Positions 26,501 through 56,848 of a stretch of DNA of 64,000 nt are shown piece by piece (the first letter of the stretch is position 1; each line of letters begins with the position of its first letter). The stretch covers positions 67,766,001-67,830,000 of the forward strand of contig NC_092351.1 of the NCBI RefSeq assembly GCF_963676685.1, given 5' to 3'. The notes beneath the pieces were generated by a model. The model saw only the letters and a list, made by a program, of their open reading frames with translations, ran no database searches and had not been told where the DNA came from. Both the position numbers and the translations under genes were made by a program. This DNA comes from Mytilus edulis. Taxonomy: Eukaryota.

Positions 26501-29500
26501 AGCCTTAGGTTTGGATCAAAATACTCTAACCCAGGTAATATAGCATTTAAAGAGGATTTTCCTGATGTACTTTTTATATGACCGCAAATAAAATTTTTGC
26601 GTCGTATAATGGTATCATGTCGTCTGCGTCATCCAAAGACACATTTAGTTTCCAGACAATAAATTTAGTTTTAGTGAATGAATCTATAAATTTTTACCAG
26701 GAGGTTCAATGCCACTAAAGGAAGATTGAGATTGATTTTGGATGTTATGGTCCCAATAGTTTAGTAATTAGGGGCCTTAAATGAAAATCTTTGCAGTTTT
26801 CAAACAATAACTTGTGTTTAAGTGTATGGATCAGAATACCTCTTTTATATTTCCCGCTCAAAACATTGCAAACATGAGTCATCTTAGTTTGTAGAATACC
26901 TGGATGAAAGTGTAAACATGGCGCTTCCATTTGTTAAAAACCGTGTCAAAATCAGAGGAAATTTACAGAATTTACGAGAATTTGAAATGAGGGAACATTT
27001 TTTTTGAAAGAATATGGAAGAATTGAAGCCAAACAAGTATACTTTTTATACGACCGCAAAAATAATTTGCGGTTATATATTAGTATGACGTTGGCGTCGC
27101 CGTCATTGGTTTTCGCACTATAACTTTAGTTTAAACTCCAAATTTTTGAAAAGTTTGAAGAAGAAATCTTTTATTGCACAATATTGCTCAATAGATTTGT
27201 AAGATATTTACATTTGTTGTGTGTCAGAAACTCATATTATATCAAAAATCTAAATTCAGAGCAGTATCAAGCTTGAATTTTGTGTCCATACTTCTTGCCC
27301 CAATTGTTCCGGGTTTTACATCTGCGGTCGACGGTCATATAAAGCTGTGCCCTGCGGAGCACCTTTTTTTTTTTTTTTTTTATGGTCCCACCGCAGCATA
27401 AGGCATAATTTTTTTTAATTGAATTGATTAATTTTAACAACTTTCTTTTTCCTTTTTGATATAAAAAAATTGCCAGATATTTAATTGTTTTTCCTGACAA
27501 GAGGACTTATAGGATTGTGCAACTAGAATTGATAAAATTGACAAACTATGAATTTGTACTGCTGCCATTATTGTATACCTAGTTACAAATTAAACAAAAT
27601 AAAAAGAAATAAGATACATATGGCCCTTTGTACTAAAGTAAAAACCAAATATTGTAGCGCCGCAAGCTAATGAGTACTCCTCTTTCAAATCTCACCACTT
27701 AAGGATGTACTTTGGTGAGGTTAGGTGAAAATTAATAAATTAAGAAGTTAAAATTGATACTTTAAGCTGATAGAGCATCAATTAAGGATAAAAATAAGCT
27801 AAAAATATTCATAGGTCATGGACCTCCTTTTCGAGATATTTGAGATTTAAAATATGGCGGGAAAAGGCTGACTTGGACTTTTACCTTACATTTGCATTGG
27901 TATTATTTGGTCTCAAAACAAAAGAAAGAAAATCAAGAATTTTCTAAAATTTGGTAAATGACCTTTCATGAGCTATTAAGTCTTACATGGAAAAATAAAT
28001 GGGTGTTATGGGGCAAAATATTTTACATTGTATTGTATGGAAAAACACTGAGGAATCCGAACATTTGACACAATTTCCAAAACCTCACCTAAGTACATCC
28101 TTAACCCTCAGTTTCAAAAGGAATTTATCCTGTATTAAAAGAATAAAGAATATGGAGTATCCATTTATGACACAAAAGCAGTACATGCGCAACAAAAACA
28201 GACAGTCTTCATCTTCATCACAGAGAAAAATATACTCCATATCTTCCAAATATAGTTTATGTGAAAATAGACAAATTTGAAAGCGCCATCCAAAAACACA
28301 ATGTAGGAGACCTGAAGTTATTTAAAAAAATTTCTTGATATTTCAGCAGTTGGGAACTTTAAATCAACAGCAACAGCTGCTTAAGGCTCAACAGATTGAT
28401 AACATCAAAAACAGATTTCCACAACCACAACAACCTATTCCTCAAGTATGAATTTTACATCAATTTTAATTATTTCACTCGGTTTTGTTACATCACTCTT
28501 CATAGATCTTTTACCTACTAGGAATACAAAATAACAAAGATAGGGTCTTCCAATACCAATTTTTCGAATGCAGCTGGATTCCAATATCATATGATAGTGG
28601 ATAAAGATTTATTCTTACTAGAATTTGAAAACAAATCATCATTTTGATGTCTGTCTTCTTCATTCCAAAATTATGCTATTTTCCTTAGAACATGGCAAAA
28701 TTTGACCAAGGTGAAAACTTAAAGCAACCATTGTGACTTCCTAAATCATTACCTTTGCTAACAAATTTGCTGGACAATATATAAGTACATTTTTCCTTTT
28801 AACTGATAATATAAGGGTAATTGTCATCGTCTCAGGTAAGACAATTTTCTATCAAAAAAAAAGATCCAATGATGAGGTAGACCTTGTAGTACAGGTTAGA
28901 CATAAATTACTCTCCTCTATTCATACTAATTTTATATGCCTGTAGTGGATGCATTATGGTATATTTTGTCCAACTGTGGTTATTTCAACACTTTGCGTAA
29001 ATATTGGTGAATATTGTCCTGAGTAGATTTTATATTGCACAAAAATTGAGGTCCCCCCCAAAAAAAATGTAGAGGGGTTTAGAAGGTACTTCATATTAAA
29101 ACTACAGGGATGATGATTATCAAAACTATTTTTCACACTTTTTCAATTAGAATTGTCTGGGTGGCAGGTGTTGAAACAAACTGCCCTCTCTCTTACATTT
29201 TTTTCCAGGAATAGCCTCATAACAAATCTTGAAAAACACTTAAAAACATTATACAAAGCCTCTGCATGTAACAAAAAGGGAAAATTAATCAATAATGTGT
29301 CATGGGATAGTTTACAAAAACATTAAAAAATATGTTTACATTGATCTTTTGATATAAGAATTGTTCTTTTCACGATAAATGAATGATAGACTTCTTTGGA
29401 CCTCTTGTTAATATTTTAAATAAGTAATTGATTTTATGTTTTATGGAGATGATTAAGGGTTTTGTATTCTGGTCATGTTAATATATTGTATTATATGCCT

Positions 29501-32500
29501 TAATGTTACAGGCTCAAACATGCCCACATTCCAATGCTGGCTCTTAATAAGTATTTATATTCTGTTGTTTTCAGCCACGACCACAACTTCCCCCATCTCC
29601 AGCATCAGTTAGCCAGCTGACACAGAGAAGTCCTGCTCCAGCATCCAGTATTTTGTCACAGTTCTCACCACAGCCACTTTTGTCACAAAACCCTACATCA
29701 GTATCATCACAGTTGTCATCGTCTCAGGTAAGACAATTTTCTATAAAAAAAAAAAAGGCCAATGATGAGGTAGACCTTGTAGTACAGGTTAGACATAAAT
29801 TACTTTCCTCGATTCATACTTATTTTATATGCCTGTAGGGGATGCATTATGGTATATTTTGTCCAACTGTGGTTATTTCAACACTTTGTATAATTACTCA
29901 AATTTCCTTTCAAACAAATCTCTTTAACCCTTTCACCGATTGCTGCCCAGACAGAAGCTACTCCGAGACGATGGCTTCCCTAGCTACTTTTACTCAAGTG
30001 GGAGATCTTCATAATAAATATCAATAAAAACCTGTTTGTAGGTATTTGTGTATTTATTTTATTCACTAACACCATGTTTACAGTTTTGTTTATGTTTTGA
30101 TAATTTTTTCTTCATAAAATATTCAAATTTTCCAATTTTCGGCATTATATAGGTGAAATTCTCAAAATTCTGCTCTTTCACCCCTAATCGTAATTTTTTA
30201 ACCCAAAACGGCAAAATTTTGAAAAAATTTATGAGGCTGTACAAATTCCTCACACTGAACGATGTCCATTCCAAGTGTTTTGTACAAAAAAACAACATTT
30301 TATGTCAAAAAAGTATACTAGTTTGGCTTCAATTCTTCCATATTCTTTCAAAAAATATGTTCCCTCATTTCAAATTCTCGTAAATTCCATAAATTTCCTC
30401 TGATTTTGACACGGTTTTCAACAAACGGAAGCGTCATGTTTACACTTTAATCCGGGTATTCATCAAAGAAAGATAACTCATGTTTGCACTGTTTTGAGCG
30501 GGAAATATAAAAGATGTATTCTGATCCCGGTAAAACGGGACTCATCGTCAGCTGTCTGAAGTGTAAATCCCGGTAAACCGGGACTCATCGGCGAAAGGGT
30601 TAATTTAAATAGTATTGAAGAAATGTATCTTTCTGTTTTGCCAATTTGTTGGTCCTTTTTCATAGTTTATTGGACTTGGCTATCATATAAGGGCAGTTAT
30701 TCAAATATCTCTTCTATTTTTCAATGGAATAGTTTTTAGAGTATGTCTGATAGCATGGAGGAGCCTTTATCAGCAACAAACTGGTTATAAATTTGAAGAT
30801 TGATAACTATTTTTATTATCTCTTTACAGTCATTAGAAAATTTACATAATGCATTACAAGCAGACAAGCTGATGTCCGCAGATATAAATACTAGTCTCAA
30901 TCAAAATGGTGGTAGTCAGCCCCAAACATTAGTAGATGTTCTGACAGCTCCATGTACAACTGGTTCTACACAGCCAACCAGTACAGCACCTGCTACGTCT
31001 ACAACAACAGTAACCACTAGTGCTAGTAACAGTCTCATTAACTCAGTAACACCAATTACTAACTCTATAGAGCAGGATGTTAAACCAGATATTAAACAAG
31101 AAATCAAGATGGAAATTAAAACAGAGCAGGACATCAAACAAGAACCTGGAATTCATTGTGGAAAAGAGATTTCACAGGTATTTGTATAGGCTCAAATAGT
31201 TTTTAACAACATAGGAGATGGTTATATAGAGATTAATTACAATTGAAGAATTGATGAAGTTGAGTATAACAACCAAAACAAGAGTAATAATTTTTTCATT
31301 GAATGATGCATTTAAAAAAAATATGCACCAAAATCAGGATTTACACATGCATTGAAATATGATTACTTACTTATCCTGCTTTACATTGTAATAAAAAAAA
31401 AATGGTACCCCATGAATAATATTTTTAAGAATAAAAATGTGAATAAACATAAAATTAGAAAGAACATATGAAAAAAAAACTGCAGAAAGCATTACTGATT
31501 TATTATTAAATAATGAGTTCTGGTATGTTAAGACCTTTACACAATGATGTAAATAACTTACTAATAGTTAAAGGCGTCAGTTTCCTACACTGTTGGCATC
31601 TCATTGATAGAAACATTACTCCTGGAAATTTTCAGTTTAAGCATAATTGATGTTATCCAAAAGTTGTAGGGAGATCACTGCTACATCATTTCATTTAAAC
31701 CAGAATTAAAGAAAAATTAGTATGTAGAAGGAAAGTGACTGATAAAATGTATTATTTTAATGTTACATCTAAGATACTTGAGAATGTATAAATCATAATT
31801 TTTTTTACTTTTTCAGTCCTCTCAAATAAAAACAGAAAATGATACAAGTGACATAAAACCTATGATATCTCCAAAGACTGAGCTTACAACCAATGATACT
31901 GAAAATAGTGAAACCAAACCAAGTCCAATGGAAACACCATCCATGTCACCAAGCATTCCTGTTTCCACACCATCATCAACTCCCAACAACGTAGTTGTAC
32001 CTGGCTCATCCAAACCTAGATGCAAAAAAAGTAGGTAGCTCCTCAATCAGGAGTGTTTACAAATATCTCTTTTATCTTGCAACTTCTTTTATATTGGCCA
32101 TCTGACAGTGTATGGTTTAACTGCCAAAATATTATATCATTTAAAGATATTAAATATCCTTAAAATACATATTTTGAGCAATGCCAAGCCATCACAAACT
32201 TAACCCTTCAAATTTTTAGTTTGTCAGTGAAATGTTTCCCGATGATTCAGGATGATTGAAAAAATAGTTCTTCAAGTTGGAGCGAATGCTTTCCTTGACA
32301 TGACCTCTGAACTATAATTTAAATTACAACCATCATAATATTGATTTCTACTTTTTCAGTATTTAAACCTGATGAATTAAGACAATCTTTGATGCCGGTG
32401 CTAGAGAAGTTATACAAGCAAGATCCAGAATCTATGCCATTCAGACAACCAGTTGACCCAGTCTTATTGGGAATACCAGTAAGTGTGCAGATAAGATATT

Positions 32501-35500
32501 TTGAAAATAAAGCAATAATAATTGTTAGTATGGTTTGGTAGGATTAATTTTCTTTTCACAGCAATATATATATAGCCCCTTTAAATTTTTATCCCCCTCC
32601 CTCCTTGTATCAAAGGGGGCATTAAGTTTTACCCTTGTCCATATTATTTTATTTAATATGCAAGTGGGAGCATCATCTGTATTTCTTATAGTCCAATATG
32701 TTTAAGACTTAATTCAATATAATAAAGGAAAAGCATATGCACTTGGACCCATAAGTGATTGGTGTATGAAGTTTGCTGTTTGTGTTCTTTTCATTAGTAC
32801 CATTTATTATCTTAAACAGGATTACTTTGACATAGTAAAGACTCCAATGGACCTGTCATTAATACGAAGAAAGTTAGATACAGGGCAATATGCTGATCCA
32901 TGGCAGTTCTGTGATGATGTTTGGATGATGATGGACAATGCATGGCTGTATAATAGGAAAACTTCAAGAGTTTACAAATTTGCTTTAAAGGTAAAGATAT
33001 AATTCACAAAGAGATCTGTCTGTCTGTCGGGACAGTAGATTCTTTGATTGAATAAAAGAAAGATTTTATATTTCATGTGCAGTTTGATCATGTTGATTTG
33101 TAGGCTGTAAGTTATTTTATATCTACCATGGACACACTTCCTGGTTGCTTATTATTTGAAAATTTACAACACTCATTGGTACAAGGAAAAGAGATATTCA
33201 AACATGTTCCTCCTCTACAATTACATAATATAAGCATTTTATTTAAGTCAAATGAGCATAGAAACCATATTTTTCAGTTGTGATTCTGTACATGTGACTT
33301 CGATCAATAGTATTGGAATCCTATGATCGTGCTTCATGGCTGATATGAAGCTGATTCTTTTTAAAGAAATTGTAATAAATATTTTAGATCTTTGATTAAT
33401 TTGAATTTATGCACATAGCAGTACATTATTTCAAAATTTTAAAGGTAAAATTAAACAAATGGATTGTTAACATGGGACTGAGTGAAAAATGGATACAGAA
33501 AAATGAGACTTGTCTAAGTTGAAAGGATACAGGTGGAATCACCCCTGACTACCCATTTTCTGATTCATGAGCACACTACTTTATTAACTTTATCTTTGTA
33601 GAAAAACATTGGTATTTCATATTACAGGTTATAGTATGAAACTTATTATTGTGATTCAAACCTTTCTTTCCTTTTATTTTAGCTTGCCGAAGTATTTGAG
33701 GGTGAAATTGATGCTGTAATGCAATCCTTAGGTTACTGTTGTGGAAGAAAGCATGTTTTCAGTCCACAAGTGCTATGCTGTTACGGCAAACAACTTTGTA
33801 CCATATCAAGAGATGCTGTTTACTATAGTTTTCAAAATAGGCAAGTGTGTTAGATTACTGAAGCATAATCAATAGTTTTAATACTTATTAAATGTAACCA
33901 AAAAAAAACAAATGAAAAAGAATAAACACGTAATTTTTTTTTTTACTGATGTATGAGAAGAAAAGCAGATATCTTCATGTATAAACATCTTTAATACCAT
34001 AAAGTCTTTACTATAACTACAGAGGGAATAGTCCTGTAGAATACCTTGACTTGATAGTAAAAATCTTCCAAAATAGAAACAAGTATTTTCGTGGAAGCTA
34101 TTGCCAATGAGTTGTTACAGTTCTATTAATTGAAATTATTAATTTCTGCTTTGTATACATGTAGTATATGCTCAAATAATTGTACAATGTGTTGACTATG
34201 GATTCATTTATTTTGGTGGATTAAGGAAAACTTACTTGGTTATGGATATTAAAATTTTTGGTTTTGCTGAAGACTGCATACAAGCCTATATGAAATTTGT
34301 CCTTTGTTGAACATTTAATTTTGTGGTTGACCTGTTCCCACAAAATCAACAAAATGAGTATCCCACAAATAATAATGAATCCACAGTATGTGTATGGCTA
34401 TTTCACTTGAATGAATGTTAGGATGGGGGAGGGAAAGAAAGGACTTCTTTAATCCAAATCAACATACAATGTACTTTCAGCAATCATTAATGGCGCACAA
34501 ATTTTGTCCAAACAAATTCTCCCTACCTACCCTATCGCATTCATTCAACAGAATAGCCATTAGTTATTTTCAATATTTCATGGTAGATTTTGTACATTAT
34601 GATATAACAGTGGATCAGTATTTAAATGTACTCCATTGATTTCAATATCATCATTTCTCATCACCATCATTGCTTGCTTGCACATTATTTTTGTGCCTGA
34701 TGCTGTTCAGTTATTAAATCACATTGAAAAGAAAGAAAAAAGCATATGAAAAATGTATCTAGAGTTGTTTCAGAATTAAACGCATGGAAGGCCCTGTTTA
34801 AAACCTCACTTCCTAAAATATAGAATCTTCATTTTTCTTGTCATTCTTACAAAATTCTAAAGGAAAATGTAACAACCCACAGTTGATAAATTTGAGTGAC
34901 TCCCATGTCCACAGTCAAATTGGGATCACATATGCAACTATCAATGAAATTAGACAAAAGTACACACTCCTGATATAAATTGCTTTCAGGGTATCTAGTT
35001 AATAATTTGTACATTTTATAAAGTCTCTGAAACCTGAGCAGCTGAAGGTTCTTTCTTATATTGCTTTATAAAGAATATGGAGAGGCTTCAGACAAGAATT
35101 TTTATTCTGTGGTTTCCCTCAAACTAAAACATTGTTTCTACATGTTAATTTTTGTTTTGTTTAGCAGATATTCTTCCAATTACTACCAACTGTCCTTTTT
35201 TTTATATTTAGTACTTTCTAGTCAACAATTTTCTAACTTTTTTTTTTATTATTTTAAGTTTTAACCAAATCAAGTTGGATATATTCACACATTTTGTTCA
35301 TGTTTTTTTAATTCTGATGAATTTTGCAAGGGAAAAAAATGTCTTTAATTAGTTGGGTGACAGTACATTGTTACTGATTAATGACACACCAATGTCTTAA
35401 ATATGAAGGATGATATTTAATAGGATTTATATACTGTTGAAATACAAGGCGACTAAAAAGTTACATTATCATTATTTCTCCCTAAAATTTATTAAAAGGG

Positions 35501-38500
35501 TGTGCTTATATGTAAAATCATACTGAAGAAAAATAGTATCATGTTGGAACATTTTCATTGAAAATATTTCTGTTCTGAAAAAACATGCTTTATTTTCTAC
35601 AAGTTAGCTTTTGTGACATCTTCCTGATGGTACTTAAAAATAAGATTGTTCATTTGGTTAATTTGTGGAATATCTGTTGATTGTACCAAAATATTTTTCC
35701 TTGTTGATATTAGTTTTAAATTGTTGTAGTAGTGTTATAGTTATCATTTGTGTATTTTTTTCTTTTTCCCCAATTATTTTCTGCTTGTGCTGTGATGCTG
35801 TTGTATATTGCATTTTCATCATCCTCATCATCACCTTCAAAAATAACAGAAAACGGACAAATGGGCTTTTTTCTGACAGATACATATACTGTGAAAAGTG
35901 CTTCAATGAAATCCAGGGAGAAGAAGTGGAACTTGCAGATGACCCCACACAACCTGCTACGTAAGTATAGAATTGTAATGATAAACATTAAAAGTAGTAT
36001 ACATTTTTTACCCATTCCCACAACCTGCACAGTGAAAGGGATATTGACTTAATAAAATACTCGTTTGGTTCATCACACTTCATAGTTAATGCAAATATTT
36101 GATATCCATATGATTGATATCTTTTCAAAGATTTCTAACTGATCTATGCACATATGAAAAGATGATTCTTCTAAAAAAAAAATGGGGGGGGGGGGGAGTG
36201 GAAAATGTGAGTTTTCGATCCTGAAAGTGGCTTTAAACACCAATAAATTGATCAGAATCTCAATTTGGAAGAGGGAAAATTCTTAAATGACTTTTATATT
36301 CATTTATCCCATTTATAATGTACCTTCCCTGGGTACGATGTTTGTTTTAAGACCCATGTCTTATGTCAAATTGTTTTTTTGTTAAATTTTTAATGACTTT
36401 ATAAATTATTTTACAACTATTGGTGAGATGAGGTACATGTATAAGAAATTTCAACACAAAATATAATACAAGATATATTTGCTTAAACAATATGTAAAAA
36501 AATCTTTTTCTTTGTCCTTTACTTGAGGACAATTATGATACAAAAACTCAACAAATATTTGCCATGGTATGAATTCCTACAATGATTGTTGCTTGTTTAT
36601 TATTTGGTGGCAATTTTCCTTCATATGCTGGGCAATGAACAAATAAATTCAATATTAAAGAAAATGTTGTGTGAACAATATTAAGATTTCACAAGTTATA
36701 TTTGTATATATGATATATATGCATAAATGAAAGAACTCTTAAATTTCCAATGTTATGATTTCAGGAGAATTAAGAAAAATCAGTTTGACAGAATGAAAAA
36801 TGACCAGTTGGACTATGAACCGTAAGTCTCAGAACTATTTTTTAATACCATTGCTTTATGCCTCTTTAGAAATGGTAAAAAATCCCTGTTTTTTGTTTCT
36901 GTTCTCAAACTTTAGCTTAACTCAACCAAATATTATGAAACATATACACAATGATTATTACCATTAAAAACAGATCATGTTTAAATTTTTAAATGTTCTA
37001 GAGTTATTCTTCTTTACATATAGAAAAATTACTGAATTTTTTGTGATGCCCTATTTATGGGCATTATGTTTTCTGGTCTGTGCGTCTGTCTGTTTATTCA
37101 TTCATTCGTCTCTTTGTCCCGCTTCAGGTTAAAGTTTTTGTTTGAGGTAGTTTTTGATGAAGTTGAAGTCCAATCAACTTGAAACTTAGTAAACATGTTC
37201 CCTATGATATGATCTTTCTAATTAAAATGACAAATTAGAGATCTTATCCCATTTTCACGGTCCACTGAACATAGAAAGTGATGGTGTGGATGAAGCATCC
37301 ATGTACTTGTTTTCATTATCTTAGGTTTGCCTGAACTAAATGATATGAAACTTTAACATAATAATTATAACCAAAAAACTAAGGGCTGTTCCAGAAAATA
37401 CTATGTCCCCCCCAGGGACGGCACTTTTTTTTACCCCCACCACCCACAGAAATAAAATTTAATTAGAACAGCTCTCCCTTTGCATTTTGGTATTTCAAAT
37501 ACAACCACCCACATTATATTTAAAAAAATTGCCTTCCCTGGGGGGGACATAGTATTTTCTGGAACAGCCCTAAGTTCAAGTTCATGTTTTGGTAGTGTCA
37601 CTTTTACTGTTCTTCAGTTATGTCCCTTTATAACTTAATATTTTGGAAGTCCCTTCCTACCCTCCCATATCCATTTTAATGGAGTAAGCTTAAATGCAAA
37701 TATAAAACCTCACCCCTTTACCTGATCAACATAGATGCATGCAGATTTTTGAAATTGCAATAATTAATCTCACATTTTAGTCCATTCTTCAAAATTCACA
37801 ATAATAAATGCAAGCAATTATTTCTGAATTTACAGAAGATATGTATTTCAGAAGTTAGAACAACTAGAATTCAATTTTGTTTCAAACATTTGTAGGAAAG
37901 TTAATTTATAGTTAACTAGTGTACATGAAAGAAATATAATACAGCTGTGTTTCATTATTATTTTCTTTGTTATTACAGATTTGTTGAGTGTGAAGAATGT
38001 GGAAGAAAGCTGCATCAAATTTGTGTGCTTCATTTTGAACAGATATGGCCTAATGGGTACGATATTGCTTCATTATGTTGTTTGATAGACTGTAGAATGA
38101 AAGTAACAAGAAGTCACTTACTGACTAAACACAAATTAATGATTGAAGCATAAATATTATGACATAACCTTTCTTCATATTATTGACTTAATATTGCAAA
38201 TGCCAGAGTATAAACATATCTTGGCTGTATGTTTGGTCCAACTTTTTGGAGCCAGAGCAGCCAGCCCCTGGAAGACATTAAGTTTCCAGATGATAATTTG
38301 AGTATAAGTGTAAGGATCTCTATGAAATAGTACCTAAAAAGGAAGGTTGGGATTGATATTTGGGGGTATGACCCACAATGCTTAGTTATAAGGACTTTTC
38401 TTATACTTTGTATAGATTGCTTATTTTTGACCAATTTCAATGGGGGTATAGTTCAAAGTTTTGAATTCTTGGTGTTCTTTAATAAACTGAATCTAACCAT

Positions 38501-41500: not shown

Positions 41501-44055
41501 TCATTTCACCATGTGTATATATTAATGTACTTTTAAGTCGTTGCATAGGTGTTGTGCATTATTTACTAAAGACTTTTCATTCTTGTAGGAGATGTTACAT
41601 ATGTTGTGCATTATTTACTAAAGACTTTTTATTCTTGTAGGAGATGTTACATATCATATTTAGACAGTGTACATTTTTTCCAACCAAGACAACTCAGGAC
41701 AGCAGTTTATCATGAAATCCTTATTGGTTATTTAGAATATGCCAAACAAATGGGATTCACATGGGCACATATTTGGGCTTGTCCACCAAGTGAAGGAGAT
41801 GATTACATATTTCATTGTCATCCACCAGAACAAAAAATTCCAAAACCCAAACGTCTACAAGAATGGTATAAAAAGATGTTAGATAAAGCTATTATTGAAA
41901 GATGTGTGATTGATTATAAGGTTTGTATTTTTGAACACTGTTGATTTATTATTATTTGTTAGATACCAATTTTCATAGTTTTCTTTGGCACAGGTGATCC
42001 ATGAATTAAATTGTTAATTGATTTACACATTTTCTACAGGCTTTGTATACAGAGATCCATTAAGGGCTATTCCTTGTTTTGAAAATTTGCTGTATTTTTA
42101 TGAATATGTGCAATTGTGCTTTAAAAAATTATGGTTTTTAATACTAGATGGATAGTTTCTCATTAGGGGACCTATAACATTCAACAATGAAAGTCAAATC
42201 CTCTTTTAGAATGTTTAGTTTATGTGTACAGAAAAGAAAAAATCACCATCTTTTTATTCTCCTACCGACAAGGTTGTTCCTTGTTTCTGAATCCTAATTG
42301 TGATTGTGTTTATAAAATATACTTGTATTATTCATAATAAAATATTGTTTACTTAAAAAAGTCGAGTACTTTAGGTTTGCACTCTGTCCGTCTGTCCATC
42401 TGTCAGTCGACAAATCTGTTTTCCACCCTTTTTTTCTTCATTCTTGATAATCTTGAAGATATTAATTTGATATTTGGTTTGTTGTTTTATCATGACAAGT
42501 AAAAGATCAAGTTTAAATTTTGTTCCAGTCTGATGATTAAGTGCAGAATTATGATCCTTTGACTTCAAAAATTCAATAAAATAATCAGTTTTCTGGACTT
42601 TTTTTCATCATGCATGAAGATGTTAATTTGAAAATTGGTATGATCGAATTTTGAATTTTATTCCAGTCTGATGATTTTGTGCAGAGTTGGACTTACAAAA
42701 TTCACTTATATATCAGTTTTCATTATATATATATAGTGAACAACATGACAAGTTATATTTATTCCAATGCAATACAATGAGTGTTTAACCAGTAGGGGAC
42801 TATGTATCACCATGCAATGCTTGTTATCAGTGCTGTTAAAAGGCTGAAAATATCCCTAAAAATTCAAAATTAACAGATTTTTAACAATTAAATCAAGATG
42901 CACAAAGTTTTAAGTATTGGTCAGAATTTAGGGTTCTTTTGTACTTTAACAATATCACAATAACAATAAAATGACCTAAATTTTGGACAAGGTAAGGGAC
43001 GACATCAAAAGTTCAATGTAGGATAAAAAACTTAATTCACATAGTTTTTCCACTGACCCCCCACCCCCCTCTTAACTTAATTTGGGAAAAATTGATTTAC
43101 CAATAGGGATATATGTAAAAATTGATTTTGGATATACAAAACTTGCAGAATTTTAACCCCCAAACCCCCCAACCCCAAAACTATTTGATTTAAGTTTTTT
43201 ATCCTACATCGATCTTTTGATGTCGTCCCTAAATGGCATGAAGCCAAATTTATCGACTTCTGTTGTATGAATGGGATAAACTGACTTTTCAATTCTCAAG
43301 GCTAAATAAGTATTTTATAGGCTAAACACAAACTTACCTGTCAAGGTAGAATTGTAATCTGAGTGATAGTCACCATAAAGGTTTTTTTTTGTGTTTGGGT
43401 ATGAACAATGACAAAGTTTGTGATAAGGTCAGTTTGAGGGGACCTATCCATGGTAAGTCAATGATATTTGGTAAAGAGGTGTATACGCCCTGCCGTATCA
43501 CATTTTCATGAGGATTATTGGTCACTAGACTTTCAGTCATGATACATTGACATGAATGTTTTGCATACTTTATGTGTTAAGTATTCTTAATTTCAACATT
43601 TGCATTTTACTTTACAAATTTCATAGAGGAGGGACACATCTATTTTTCAATTGCTTGATACCTTTGTGCTTATTGGAACATTTTATTAGTTGTACATATT
43701 ACATATTTTACATTTAATTTCAGGATATTTTAAAAGATGCAATCGAAAACAATATAAAATGTGCCACACAAATACCCTATTTTGAGGGAGATTTCTGGCC
43801 CAATGTTTTAGAAGAAAGCATCAAAGAATTGGACCAGGAAGAGGAAGAAAAGAAGAAACGTGAAGAAGCTGAAGCTGCAGCAGCAGAACAAGCAAGTGTT
43901 GAGGAGGTTGTTGAAGGAGAAGCTGACAATCCTGTAAGTGTTACTAGACATAGATATTCCTTATTTATTCTTTGCTTCTCTGTATGTCTGTCAGTCTTTT
44001 GTTAGTATCTTCTAAGGGTAACCTCTTGTAAAAGTTTTTATACCCCATGCAGCGA

Positions 44056-44091
<36 letters not shown>

Positions 44092-47000
44092 CGTCAGTCC
44101 TGTTTCTTGTCATCGCAACTCCTCTCAAACCACACAACAGAATTTCACGAAACCTTTTCAGATAATAAGGACATACTATGTAGTTGTGCATATCGACGGG
44201 AAATTGCGATTCAATTTTTTTTCTGGGAGTAACGCCCCTTTGAACTTATTTACTTTAATGTACTACTGCAACAGTTTGTCATCGCAACTCCTCTCAAACC
44301 ACACAACAGAATTTCACGAAACCTTTTCAGATAATAAGGACATACTATGTAGTTGTGCATATCGACGGGAAATTATGATTCAATTTTTTTTCTAGGAGTT
44401 ACGCCCCTTTGAACTTATTTACTTTAATGTACTACTTCAACAGTTTGTCATCGCAACTCCTCTCAAACCACACAACAGAATTTCACGAAACTTTTTCAGA
44501 TAATAAGGACATACTATGTAGATGTGCATATCGACAGGAAATCACGATTCAATTTTTTTTCTAGGAGTTACACCTCTTTGAACTTATTTGCTTTAAGGTA
44601 CTACTTCAACAGTTTGTCATCGCAACTCCTCTGAAACTACATAACAGAATTTCATGAAACCTTTTCAGATAATAAGAACATACTATGTAGATGTGCATAT
44701 CGACAGGAAATCACGATTCAATTTTTTTTCTAGGAGTTACACCTCTTTGAACTTATTTGCTTTAAGGTACTACTTCAACAGTTTGTCATCTCAACTCCTC
44801 TGAAACCACACAACAGAATTTCATGAAACTTTGTAGATAATAAGGTCATACTATGTAAATGTGTATATTGACAGGAAATTATTATTCAGTATTTTTTCTT
44901 ATACAATTTTTTTTTCTTATACTTATTTAATTTCTCCAATGACAATGTGGGGACGTGGGGTATGTGAGCATGCTCACTAAGGTTCTTTTTTTTCCTCAAT
45001 AAATAGTTAATGAAATAAAGCCTTCTCAAACTAGTGTTTCTGTGAGTTTATGTTTAGTTAACACAATCAAATTGAATTCCATCAAATCTATCTATATAAA
45101 ATACAGTTTCCAAAGGGATTGATATTCTAGTATCAGAATTCATTTGTATGAAAGAAATTTAGATGATCCTTCGTTGCAACAGAATAACACTTCTGTCGAA
45201 TATATGTATTAGCAAATAATTTGCCATCATTAAATTGTCAAAAACAGGTTTTATACAGTTGTACGCATTGAGGATGCTGATGAAATCGAAATTTATGAAA
45301 GTGTATGCAATATACATGTATTTAGATGAAAATGCTAGAATGACTTCTTGTTTGTATTTAAAATTTGTCTTACCTTGTTTCATTAGATTTGAGTGATACT
45401 GACGAGGCAATGCAGATTTAGCTTATGTTCAAACTTACAAGTTTTGTATATTGGATGAAATAAACAACGTCATTAGGTTAATTAAAAACATTGGTCATTT
45501 AAGAGGATGGATTTGTGTACAGACACAGTAGTTGATGTTTTGCTATGAATCTAGGTATCTGTAGACTACATTATTATTGCAGTTATATTTATTTATTTAC
45601 ATATTTATTTTCGTAGAATGGTGCTGGAAAGAAGAAAGGAAAGGGTGGTAGAAAACAAAAGCAAAGCAAAAATAAAAACAATCAGCGGAAAAATACCAAA
45701 AAGACCAATATGCCTCATGGTGGAAATGATCTCACACAAAAAATATTCAGTACTATGGAAAAACACAAAGAGGTAGGAAATAACTTGTAACTTTAAGTCT
45801 GTAATTCCTATGGTTACACTGCACTATATAGTGTAACCATGGGATTTATAGACCTATCAGGAAAAAGGTATCATGTCAATGTAAAGAAATAAAACAAATG
45901 GAAACGTTCTGAGTGTTTAGAATTAGTTTATTTTAGGAAAGTTCAGGTGGTTAGAAGACATATTGTGATACATTGGATGATAGGATTAGAACATTCTTCA
46001 CCTTAAAAACGCTATTTATACTATTTTATAGATGAAAACAAATAAAAACAACAAAATTCTTTCTTTTGTAAGATTTTTTTCCCGTGGTTGCTATTTCACA
46101 ATATAAAAAGATTGTCTTGTAATTAACATCGGTGTTGTATAGTTTCTAAAAGAATCCTCAATGTTTTCTATCATTGTAAGATATCATAAGCATTAAATTA
46201 TCATTCACGTAACATATAAACATTTATAATGTACAGTGTTTTTTTAACAGAATAAAAGATGTTTACTATTTGATATATGTTGAATATGTTAAATGGATGA
46301 TTTGCTCTATTGACAGGTATTCTTTGTGATTCGTTTACACAGTCAACAGGTAGCTTCAACACTTCCTCATATTCATGATCCAGATCCTTATATTTCTTGT
46401 GATTTAATGGATGGAAGAGATGCATTTCTCACAATGGCAAGAGACAAACATCAGGAATTTTCATCTTTACGTCGTGCAAAATATTCAACAATGGCTTTAT
46501 TGTATGAGCTTCATAATCAAGGAAAAGACAATTTTGTTTACACATGTAATACTTGTAAAGCACATGTGGAAACTAGATGGCATTGTACTGTTTGTGAAGT
46601 AAGTAATGTGACTTTACATTTGGTGTCTGTGTGGGTTTTTTTTCATCTAAACTAATGATTTTACATGAATTTTTTGTTCTATTATTTCAATGATCCCTGT
46701 TAATTTACATTTAATGACAATGTTAATGAGCACTAAAAGAATCATTAAAGTTGTTGGTATTTTGAACCAACTATGAAATATTTTTAAATACTATCTGAGA
46801 AGTAATAACCTGTATTGTAATTAAGAACCAGTTGTTTTGTATCTACAAGGTGCCAAATTTTCAGTAAAACTATTAAAAACTTTTGTGATATGAAGTGAAA
46901 ATATTTAAACTTGTCACACATGCTAAGCAAGAAGTGGAAGATACCTAAGGGACAATCAAAAACAAGATAATGAAAAAAAGACTAATAAAACCATTGCAAT

Positions 47001-56388: not shown

Positions 56389-56848
56389 TTATTACGCCCC
56401 ACCTACGATAGTAGAGGGGCATTATGTTTTCTGGTCTGTGCCTTCGTTCGTCCGTCCGTCTGTGCTTCCGTTCGCTTCAGGTTAAAGTTTTTGGTCAAGG
56501 TAGTTTTTGAAGAAGTTGAAGTCCAATCAACTTGAAACTTAGTACACATGTTCCCCATGATATGATCTTTCTAATTTTAATGCCAAATTATAGTTTTGAC
56601 CCCAATTTCGTGGTCCACTGAACATAGAAAATGATAGTGCGAAGTTCAGGTTAAAGTTTTTGGTCAAGGTAGTTTTTGATGAAGTTAAAGTTACATCAAC
56701 TTGAAACTTAGTACACATGTTCCCTATGATATGATTTTTCTAATTTTAATTCCAAATTAAAGGTTTAACCCCAATTTTCACGGTCCACTGAACATAGAAA
56801 ATGATAGTGCGAGTGGGGCATCCGTGTACTATGGACACATTCTTGTTT
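56389..56848 (+). mobile_element. HINE-like element with 2 x ~160-bp units
   Basis: gccccacctacgatagtagaggggc hairpin, (CCGT)n, 3' gtggggcat plus hairpin; single-unit relative at ~37045-37290. Confidence 0.82.

What the first reader, a model, noticed from the sequence alone, without database searches (positions are those of the whole stretch)
35811..35880. In-frame alternative acceptor adds 10 aa inside the RING domain, under a YCAY cluster
Seen: a second acceptor (aataacag|, 35850) lies 30 nt upstream of the main one (35880) in the same phase, turning QN-R-YIYC into [17 protein letters not shown]. Directly upstream are five YCAY tetramers within ~20 nt (35816-35834). From memory, Drosophila Nejire has a 10-aa insert at this position (QN-SLKEYGVASN-RYTYC) that human CBP lacks, with G and S in the same register; this needs an alignment. 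Known: the RING restrains HAT activity, and NOVA/Pasilla binds YCAY clusters. Inference: an ancient protostome, possibly neural, splice switch tuning CBP catalysis.
Basis: partly seen in the sequence, partly recalled or inferred. Interest (0 to 1): 0.72.

Follow-up and report, generated by a model that had tools for sequence, protein, structure and literature searches.

The report
Ancient splice choice in CBP/p300 RING
This shellfish's gene for the master acetylating enzyme CBP/p300 is spliced in two ways that add or omit ten amino acids in its regulatory RING domain; the same pair of forms is annotated in oysters, insects, a horseshoe crab and vertebrates, so it is likely an ancient, little-noticed choice that may tune the enzyme.

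Summary
The tandem acceptor is real. Raw RNA reads use both sites, but the upstream one (35850, +10 aa) is the major form: 279 of 302 junction reads in 4 runs. The donor is GC. The insert is not protostome-specific. Homologous 8-12 aa inserts (core G-L/V-x-S/A-D) occur in vertebrate CREBBP and EP300 models, including mammals, and in arthropods; 19 species have both forms annotated. All 16 matched solved p300/CBP sequences are the short form. In 7 distinct unnamed animal loci the insert is contiguous with the next exon, as here. The conserved RNA feature is a 107-420 nt AG-free zone (8 of 8 tandem cases; 2 of 35 single-acceptor loci), the hallmark of distant-branch-point scanning. The YCAY cluster is real and rare, but only 2 of those 7 loci have one. 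NOVA control, neural bias and an effect on HAT activity are untested. An AlphaFold model puts the insert in a hairpin-tip loop. Ten paper searches found no description of this isoform.

The parts
33683..33840 (+). Upstream exon of the CBP/p300 gene (end of bromodomain, first half of RING, ends ...YSFQN + AG)
   Evidence: Translation; E 4e-27 to human CBP chains; junction reads; one match in the genome
33841..33846 (+). GC-type 5' splice site (AG|GCAAGT), shared by both isoforms; GC-AG intron
   Evidence: Sequence; joints 33838/35848 and 33838/35878 with 2 letters of slack; the 41 other distinct loci tabulated have GT
34648..34670 (+). Second YCAY cluster (six tetramers) in mid-intron
   Evidence: The only other 5-in-20-nt cluster on either strand of the 64-kb window; no junction with 3 or more reads nearby
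35741..35847 (+). AG-exclusion zone of 107 nt before the upstream acceptor
   Evidence: five other acceptors of this gene have 19-46 nt
35755..35771 (+). Distant pyrimidine tract, about 95 nt before the upstream acceptor; inferred partner of a distant branch point
   Evidence: Best pyrimidine window at -95; -89 to -123 in 5 of the 6 other loci checked there; branch point not mapped
35781..35813 (+). UG/UGC-rich stretch inside the AG-free zone; candidate regulator site
   Evidence: 9 UG and 4 UGC in the 70 nt before 35850; 8-18 UG in L003, L004, L006, L007, L035 and 2 in L043
35816..35834 (+). Five-YCAY cluster; overlaps branch-point-like TTCAT (-32) and CTCAT (-23)
35848..35849 (+). Upstream acceptor AG, the major site
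   Evidence: 279 of 302 junction reads
35850..35879 (+). 30-nt alternative segment coding [10 protein letters not shown]; its 3' half is also the pyrimidine tract and AG of the downstream acceptor
   Evidence: scores above 1874 of 1874 control segments against vertebrate and arthropod inserts
35878..35879 (+). Downstream acceptor AG, the minor site
   Evidence: 23 of 302 junction reads, seen in 4 of 4 runs
35880..35960 (+). Common part of the downstream exon (RYIYCEKC..., zinc-binding CxxC of the RING)
   Evidence: Translation; joint 35960/36765; PDB matches

Best explanation
One GC-AG intron of this bivalve CBP/p300 gene ends at either of two in-frame acceptors 30 nt apart, giving a major long and a minor short RING domain, a choice likely inherited from the bilaterian ancestor. 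SHOWN: both junctions are used; the long form dominates; a homologous insert sits at the same site in vertebrates, arthropods and spiralians; it is contiguous with the next exon in 7 other distinct genomic loci; all 8 tandem cases have a long AG-free zone. INFERRED, splicing: the lariat likely forms far upstream, beside the pyrimidine tract at about -95. The spliceosome would then scan to the first AG (35850, long form), while a minority of transcripts use the second AG with its own stronger pyrimidine tract (short form). Proteins binding the UG-rich or YCAY stretch between tract and AG would shift the ratio; the regulator probably differs between lineages. INFERRED, protein: the ten residues are predicted to lengthen the loop at the tip of the RING beta-hairpin just before the zinc-binding CxxC without breaking the fold. 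They would modulate, not switch on or off, RING docking on the HAT domain or on partners.
For: Junction reads 279 long and 23 short. Both forms annotated in 19 species: 5 oysters, 6 insects, 1 horseshoe crab, 7 vertebrates. Among 36 distinct inserts, G at position 6 in 28, L/V at position 7 in 31, D/E at position 10 in 31. Window insert scores 11.6 against vertebrate and arthropod inserts; 0 of 1874 YAG-ending controls, 0 of 670 pyrimidine-rich controls and 0 of 109 Asp-ending controls reach it. Contiguous layout in L003, L004, L006, L007, L035, L043 (=L044, L045) and L066. AG-free zone 107-420 nt in 8 of 8, next zone 0-36 nt; medians 35 in 35 single-acceptor loci and 27 in 39 control acceptors. 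This matches the distant-branch-point hallmark in PMC1431707. L037 has lost the downstream AG, keeps the long form and has an ordinary 34-nt zone. 12 of 36 inserts are followed by Lys, which cannot supply the in-phase AG, so the long form is fixed there. Model: insert 150-159 between strands 143-148 and 160-164, block pLDDT 73, mean 87.2. The RING restrains the HAT domain (PMC12547938).
Against: No branch point was mapped; the only yUnAy motifs found in this window's zone are at -32 and -23, an ordinary distance. Long AG-free zones can arise from low-complexity sequence (PMC1431707), and these zones are UG- and pyrimidine-rich. The loci are not independent: L006 and L007 are near relatives and most single-acceptor loci come from one clade. 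No vertebrate or Drosophila genomic DNA was available; contiguity there rests on one catfish gene model (P0307). Most paired isoforms are predicted models, and one search was seeded with a long-form query. Only short models were seen in gastropods (Pomacea 7 of 7, Littorina 3 of 3, Gigantopelta 10 of 10) and spiders, and 36 distinct loci have a single acceptor, so neither form is universally needed. No evidence of tissue regulation, and no functional data. The first half of the insert is poorly conserved.
Confidence: 0.66

Rival explanations
1. One reading: a protostome, NOVA/Pasilla-controlled neural switch that tunes CBP catalysis.
For: Two rare YCAY clusters lie in this one intron and nowhere else in the window; background 1 in 399,900 bases on both strands. 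Four YCAY at the same place in L006 and L007. The long share differs between runs, 75-98%, chi-square 11.0, p 0.012. NOVA binds YCAY and Pasilla regulates neuronal splicing in flies (PMC4309913).
Against: The insert is in vertebrates too. 5 of 7 other tandem loci have 0-2 YCAY. L036, which has no homologous insert, has 6 YCAY upstream. The cluster is a degenerate TCA repeat that also supplies branch-point-like motifs. The run heterogeneity leans on 16 reads and reads are not independent. Tissues are unknown. A NOVA gene was not sought in this genome.
Confidence: 0.13
2. The insert is ancient and useful, but the long form is effectively constitutive here. The short form is an unregulated leak to an AG that survives because it codes Asp-Arg.
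For: The short form is only 23 of 302 reads. The long form is fixed in several lineages. No tissue contrast was available.
Against: Arg can be coded without AG, as in L041, yet the downstream AG and its pyrimidine tract are kept in 8 tandem cases. The long AG-free zone tracks the presence of the choice. Other lineages keep only the short form, and all 16 solved sequences are short and functional.
Confidence: 0.17
3. Convergence: intron ends were exonised independently in several lineages, and the peptides look alike only because acceptor sequence translates to L/F/S-x-D-R.
For: The N-terminal half of the insert varies widely and the length runs from 8 to 12 aa. Single-acceptor loci without an open upstream frame often still end in GCTGACAG.
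Against: Gly is in register in 28 of 36 inserts, which a pyrimidine tract does not favour. No control segment reaches the window's score. Horseshoe crab SSKQFGLLSD, unnamed L035 SSKQYGLLCD and vertebrate SSPKYGLLAD agree along their length.
Confidence: 0.04

Closest known systems
CBP/p300 (KAT3; CREBBP, EP300, Drosophila Nejire) catalytic core with its autoinhibitory RING
   Same: Same gene family and domain order. Exon matches human CBP at E 4e-27. The model of the oyster long form matches p300 core 6GYR at TM 0.84, E 5.6e-86.
   Different: All 16 matched solved sequences lack the insert; here the insert-bearing form is the major transcript.
Distant-branch-point exons marked by AG exclusion zones (Gooding et al. 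2006, PMC1431707)
   Same: Long first AG-free zone, short second zone, pyrimidine tract near its 5' end, candidate regulatory motifs inside, alternative splicing.
   Different: The outcome is a choice between two acceptors 30 nt apart rather than exon skipping. The branch point is not mapped. The layout is shared across phyla.
NOVA/Pasilla-regulated splicing events
   Same: Dense YCAY cluster directly upstream of an alternative acceptor.
   Different: Cluster absent in 5 of 7 other tandem loci; no binding, knockdown or tissue data.
SRRM4/eMIC-dependent neural microexons (class description recalled; PMC8451555 passages seen)
   Same: Frame-preserving insert of about 30 nt in a surface loop, deeply conserved, with UGC motifs upstream.
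   Different: Not a cassette exon in the window or in 7 other loci (no own donor), and included in most transcripts of all four runs.
EP300 exon 14 skipping controlled by SRSF3 (PMC4770227)
   Same: A published in-frame splice variant of p300.
   Different: A different exon, a cassette event seen on knockdown, and not in the RING.

Membership tests
CBP/p300 (KAT3) | Bromodomain-RING-PHD-HAT core homologous to p300/CBP | tested here: met
   22 tblastn segments of an oyster-cluster CBP across 17645-47948
Alternative 3' splice site event | One donor joined to two acceptors of the same exon in RNA | tested here: met
   279 and 23 reads, both forms in 4 of 4 runs
Alternative 3' splice site event | Ratio regulated by tissue or stage | tested here: inconclusive
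   75-98% long, p 0.012, but tissues unknown and reads few in X24
Distant-branch-point (AGEZ) exons | Extended AG-free zone before the acceptor with a short second zone | tested here: met
   107 nt then 6 nt in the window; 110-420 then 0-36 in 7 other loci
Distant-branch-point (AGEZ) exons | Pyrimidine tract with a branch-point motif near the 5' end of the zone | tested here: inconclusive
   Tract at -95 in the window but no yUnAy beside it; motif 10-23 nt upstream of the tract in L003, L004, L006, L007 and L035
Distant-branch-point (AGEZ) exons | Branch point mapped more than 40 nt upstream | not testable with these tools
   Needs lariat reads or mutagenesis
NOVA/Pasilla targets | Cluster of three or more YCAY near the regulated site | tested here: met
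   Five in 19 nt
NOVA/Pasilla targets | Cluster conserved with the event | tested here: not met
   4 YCAY in 2 of 7 other tandem loci, 0-2 in the other 5; no close bivalve genome was available
NOVA/Pasilla targets | NOVA binding and NOVA-dependent splicing | not testable with these tools
   Needs CLIP or knockdown
SRRM4/eMIC neural microexons | Cassette exon with its own donor | tested here: not met
   Contiguous with the next exon in the window and 7 loci; best insert-like intron segments were not flanked by AG and GT
SRRM4/eMIC neural microexons | Neural-specific inclusion | not testable with these tools
   Tissue of the runs not given
NAGNAG tandem acceptors | Acceptors 3 nt apart | tested here: not met
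   30 nt apart
GC-AG introns | GC donor with otherwise strong consensus, used in RNA | tested here: met
   AG|GCAAGT

The most novel reading that the evidence does not exclude
For roughly 600 million years CBP/p300 has kept a regulated splice switch in its autoinhibitory RING. Mammalian CREBBP and EP300 have a second, structurally unstudied form whose extra loop changes RING-HAT restraint or partner binding in particular tissues, and this bivalve uses YCAY clusters to set the ratio.
Probability: 0.3. Interest if true: 0.82.

Novelty: new member of a known kind. Interest (0 to 1): 0.62.

Why it matters
CBP/p300 is a central coactivator and a disease gene, and its RING is a known brake on acetyltransferase activity. 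Every solved sequence matched here is the short form, yet a 10-residue-longer form is annotated across vertebrates, arthropods and bivalves and is the main transcript in this animal. Alternative events shared between phyla are rare (recalled), and this one survived the vertebrate duplication in both paralogues. It gives a direct, cheap test of whether splicing tunes p300/CBP autoinhibition. If vertebrates share the long AG-free zone, deep intronic variants there could disturb CREBBP or EP300 splicing. The isoforms already exist as automatic database models, so the new parts are the conservation, the architecture and the hypothesis.

Tried and rejected
(1) My own first idea, that vertebrates and insects have a cassette microexon that fused to the next exon in bivalves, was dropped. 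Arthropod-like loci L043 and L066 are contiguous too, and no insert-like segment flanked by AG and GT turned up in the introns scanned. It stays open for vertebrates. (2) A homologue search with the 40-residue exon frame found 3 candidates and none scored. (3) A degenerate pattern scan of viral contigs for vertebrate DNA found nothing, which says nothing about the question. (5) No hidden exon near the mid-intron YCAY cluster: no joint with 3 or more reads. (6) Four look-ups in earlier scan findings were empty. (7) Paper searches returned nothing; others returned nothing on this isoform in the listings and passages seen. (8) Delvecchio 2013, Ortega 2018 and three look-ups aimed at two NOVA/Pasilla papers were not held. 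(9) The relaxed pattern mislabelled L074, L078 and L079 as intronless and missed L037; I corrected these. (10) The fold gives no coordinates, so the distance from the insert to the HAT site was not measured. No short-form model was run. (11) No complex prediction was sent.

Full report
The locus. The window carries a CBP/p300 gene on the + strand, about 14400-49150, with one match in the 1.37-Gb genome. Its exons score best against oyster and scallop CBP, so I call the animal a bivalve by inference. Exon 33683-33840 matches human CBP chains at E 4e-27.

The observation. Two acceptors open the next exon at 35850 and 35880, in phase. Raw RNA reads from 4 runs in 2 studies, of which about 6-18% of each run was read, join donor 33840 to 35850 in 95, 85, 87 and 12 reads and to 35880 in 8, 9, 2 and 4 reads: 279 of 302, or 92%, long. 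The long junction is as deep as neighbouring junctions. The shares differ between runs (chi-square 11.0, 3 df, p 0.012), but this leans on 16 reads in X24, reads are not independent and tissues are not given. The donor is GC; the 41 other distinct loci tabulated have GT.

How old is it. Homologue searches and cluster listings show inserts at the same site in oysters (RTRQNGLFSD), a clam (8 aa), insects (SLKAYGLGSD; Drosophila SLKEYGVASN; bugs 8-9 aa), a horseshoe crab (SSKQFGLLSD), an ostracod and nematodes. They also occur in sharks, teleosts, frogs, reptiles and mammals, in both CREBBP and EP300 (SSPK/QYGLLAD). In one search, 102 of 120 listed proteins had an insert of 6 or more residues, 17 had none and 1 was unparsed; that search was seeded with a long form, listed only the best 120 of 594, and a few of those inserts look like faulty models. 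Both forms are annotated within one species in 19 species: 5 oysters, 6 insects, 1 horseshoe crab and 7 vertebrates. Only short models were seen in Pomacea (7 of 7), Littorina (3 of 3), Gigantopelta (10 of 10), spiders and Trichoplax. Among 36 distinct inserts from 44 long rows of a 64-row alignment, Gly is at position 6 in 28, Leu/Val at position 7 in 31 and Asp/Glu at position 10 in 31. The window's insert scores 11.6 against vertebrate and arthropod inserts; controls ending in YAG average -9.1 (sd 4.9) and 0 of 1874 reach it, including 0 of 109 ending in Asp. Homology, not acceptor-sequence bias, is the better reading, and the event is bilaterian rather than protostome. All 16 PDB sequences matched by both exons run N-R without the insert (positions). 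No human long form appeared in my calls.

Gene architecture elsewhere. A metagenome scan kept 80 of 118 loci. Of the 80, 9 (7 distinct) have the insert contiguous with the next exon behind an upstream AG: L003, L004, L006, L007, L035 (spiralian-like), L043-45 (insect-like) and L066 (arthropod-like by its sequence). One, L037, has a single acceptor and has lost the downstream AG, so the long form is fixed. Forty-six (36 distinct) have one acceptor and no homologous insert, 8 lack the intron (4 long, 4 short) and 16 end before the next exon (with the corrections listed under Tried and rejected). Twelve of the 36 inserts are followed by Lys, which cannot supply the in-phase AG, so the long form has been fixed more than once. 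For vertebrates I have only one catfish model that reads from intron-like sequence straight into SSPKYGLLAD-RYHFC; that is weak support for the same layout.

What is conserved in the RNA. The YCAY cluster is real and rare: one 5-in-20-nt cluster in 399,900 background bases on both strands. A second cluster sits in the same intron at 34648. But in the 70 nt before the upstream AG there are 4 YCAY in L006 and L007 and 0, 1, 0, 0 and 2 in L003, L004, L035, L043 and L066, while L036, with no homologous insert, has 6. The shared feature is a long AG-free zone: 107, 110, 129, 151, 157, 187, 217 and 420 nt, followed by second zones of 0-36 nt. The 35 single-acceptor loci measured have a median of 35 (2 over 100), 39 control acceptors a median of 27 (none over 100), and L037 has 34. 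A pyrimidine tract lies at -89 to -123 in 6 of 7 cases checked. PMC1431707 (abstract, first of 8 parts and passages read) describes this as the hallmark of distant branch points with scanning to the first AG and regulators in between; 2,264 of its 67,334 human exons reach 80 nt. The same paper warns that repetitive sequence can mimic the signal. In the window the only yUnAy motifs in the zone are at -32 and -23, inside the YCAY run, so a conventional branch point is not excluded. The loci are also phylogenetically clustered.

Protein. An AlphaFold2 model of the oyster long core (64 sequences, mean pLDDT 87.2) places the insert as a loop between strands 143-148 and 160-164, block pLDDT 73, just before the CxxC; it matches solved p300 cores (6GYR, TM 0.84). 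The RING blocks the HAT cleft and its disturbance raises activity (PMC12547938, passages; PMC9755262, passages). The primary structure papers were not held. An effect of the insert on catalysis is therefore an inference from position and conservation. Fixation in both directions across lineages suggests modulation rather than an essential switch.

Novelty. The isoforms exist as automatic RefSeq, Ensembl-derived and UniRef models. Ten searches found no paper on this isoform in the listings seen. Passages were read in PMC9828244 (no mRNA isoform found for Lymnaea CBP), PMC8451555, PMC4309913 and PMC4770227 (a different EP300 event). I read no supplements, and most subscription papers are not searched; splicing atlases or NOVA and Pasilla target tables may already list the event. 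The NOVA position rule and the rarity of cross-phylum events are recalled, not looked up.

Verdict. New member of a known kind; interest 0.62.

Noticed in passing
window 35866-35872: Reads with one extra T in the T run inside the 30-nt segment: 2 of 112, 5 of 90, 0 of 103 and 8 of 16 in the four runs. It would frameshift the long form to a stop within three codons and leave the short form intact. Either a natural allele or homopolymer slippage.
   Followed up: partly
window 34648-34670: Second cluster of six YCAY in the same intron, downstream of a possible 31-nt AG...GT segment at about 34552-34582 with no listed junction reads; intron depth there about 2 in two runs.
   Followed up: partly
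window 33841: GC donor in this intron, where the 41 other distinct loci tabulated have GT.
   Followed up: yes
L008-L061 (many related loci): A clade without an open insert frame often still ends this intron in GCTGACAG, and two loci (L013, L027) keep AG-free zones of 104 and 113 nt; possibly a relic of the lost alternative segment.
   Followed up: partly
L011, L018, L037, L041, L054 and proteins P0063, P0269: A lineage with insert KNPTPSLFSD-like in which the downstream AG is lost in most copies, fixing the long form.
   Followed up: partly
window 36940-37900: Intronic repeat that draws over 1000-fold RNA depth at 90-95% identity on both strands; transcripts from other copies of a high-copy repeat. 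Similar sequence recurs near 56400.
   Followed up: no
window 28745-29835: Local duplication of a stretch (the same translated motif at about 28860 and 29730) beside a CBP exon.
   Followed up: no
window 44000-44900: Several near-identical repeated units of about 200 nt in an intron of the gene (repeated translations).
   Followed up: no
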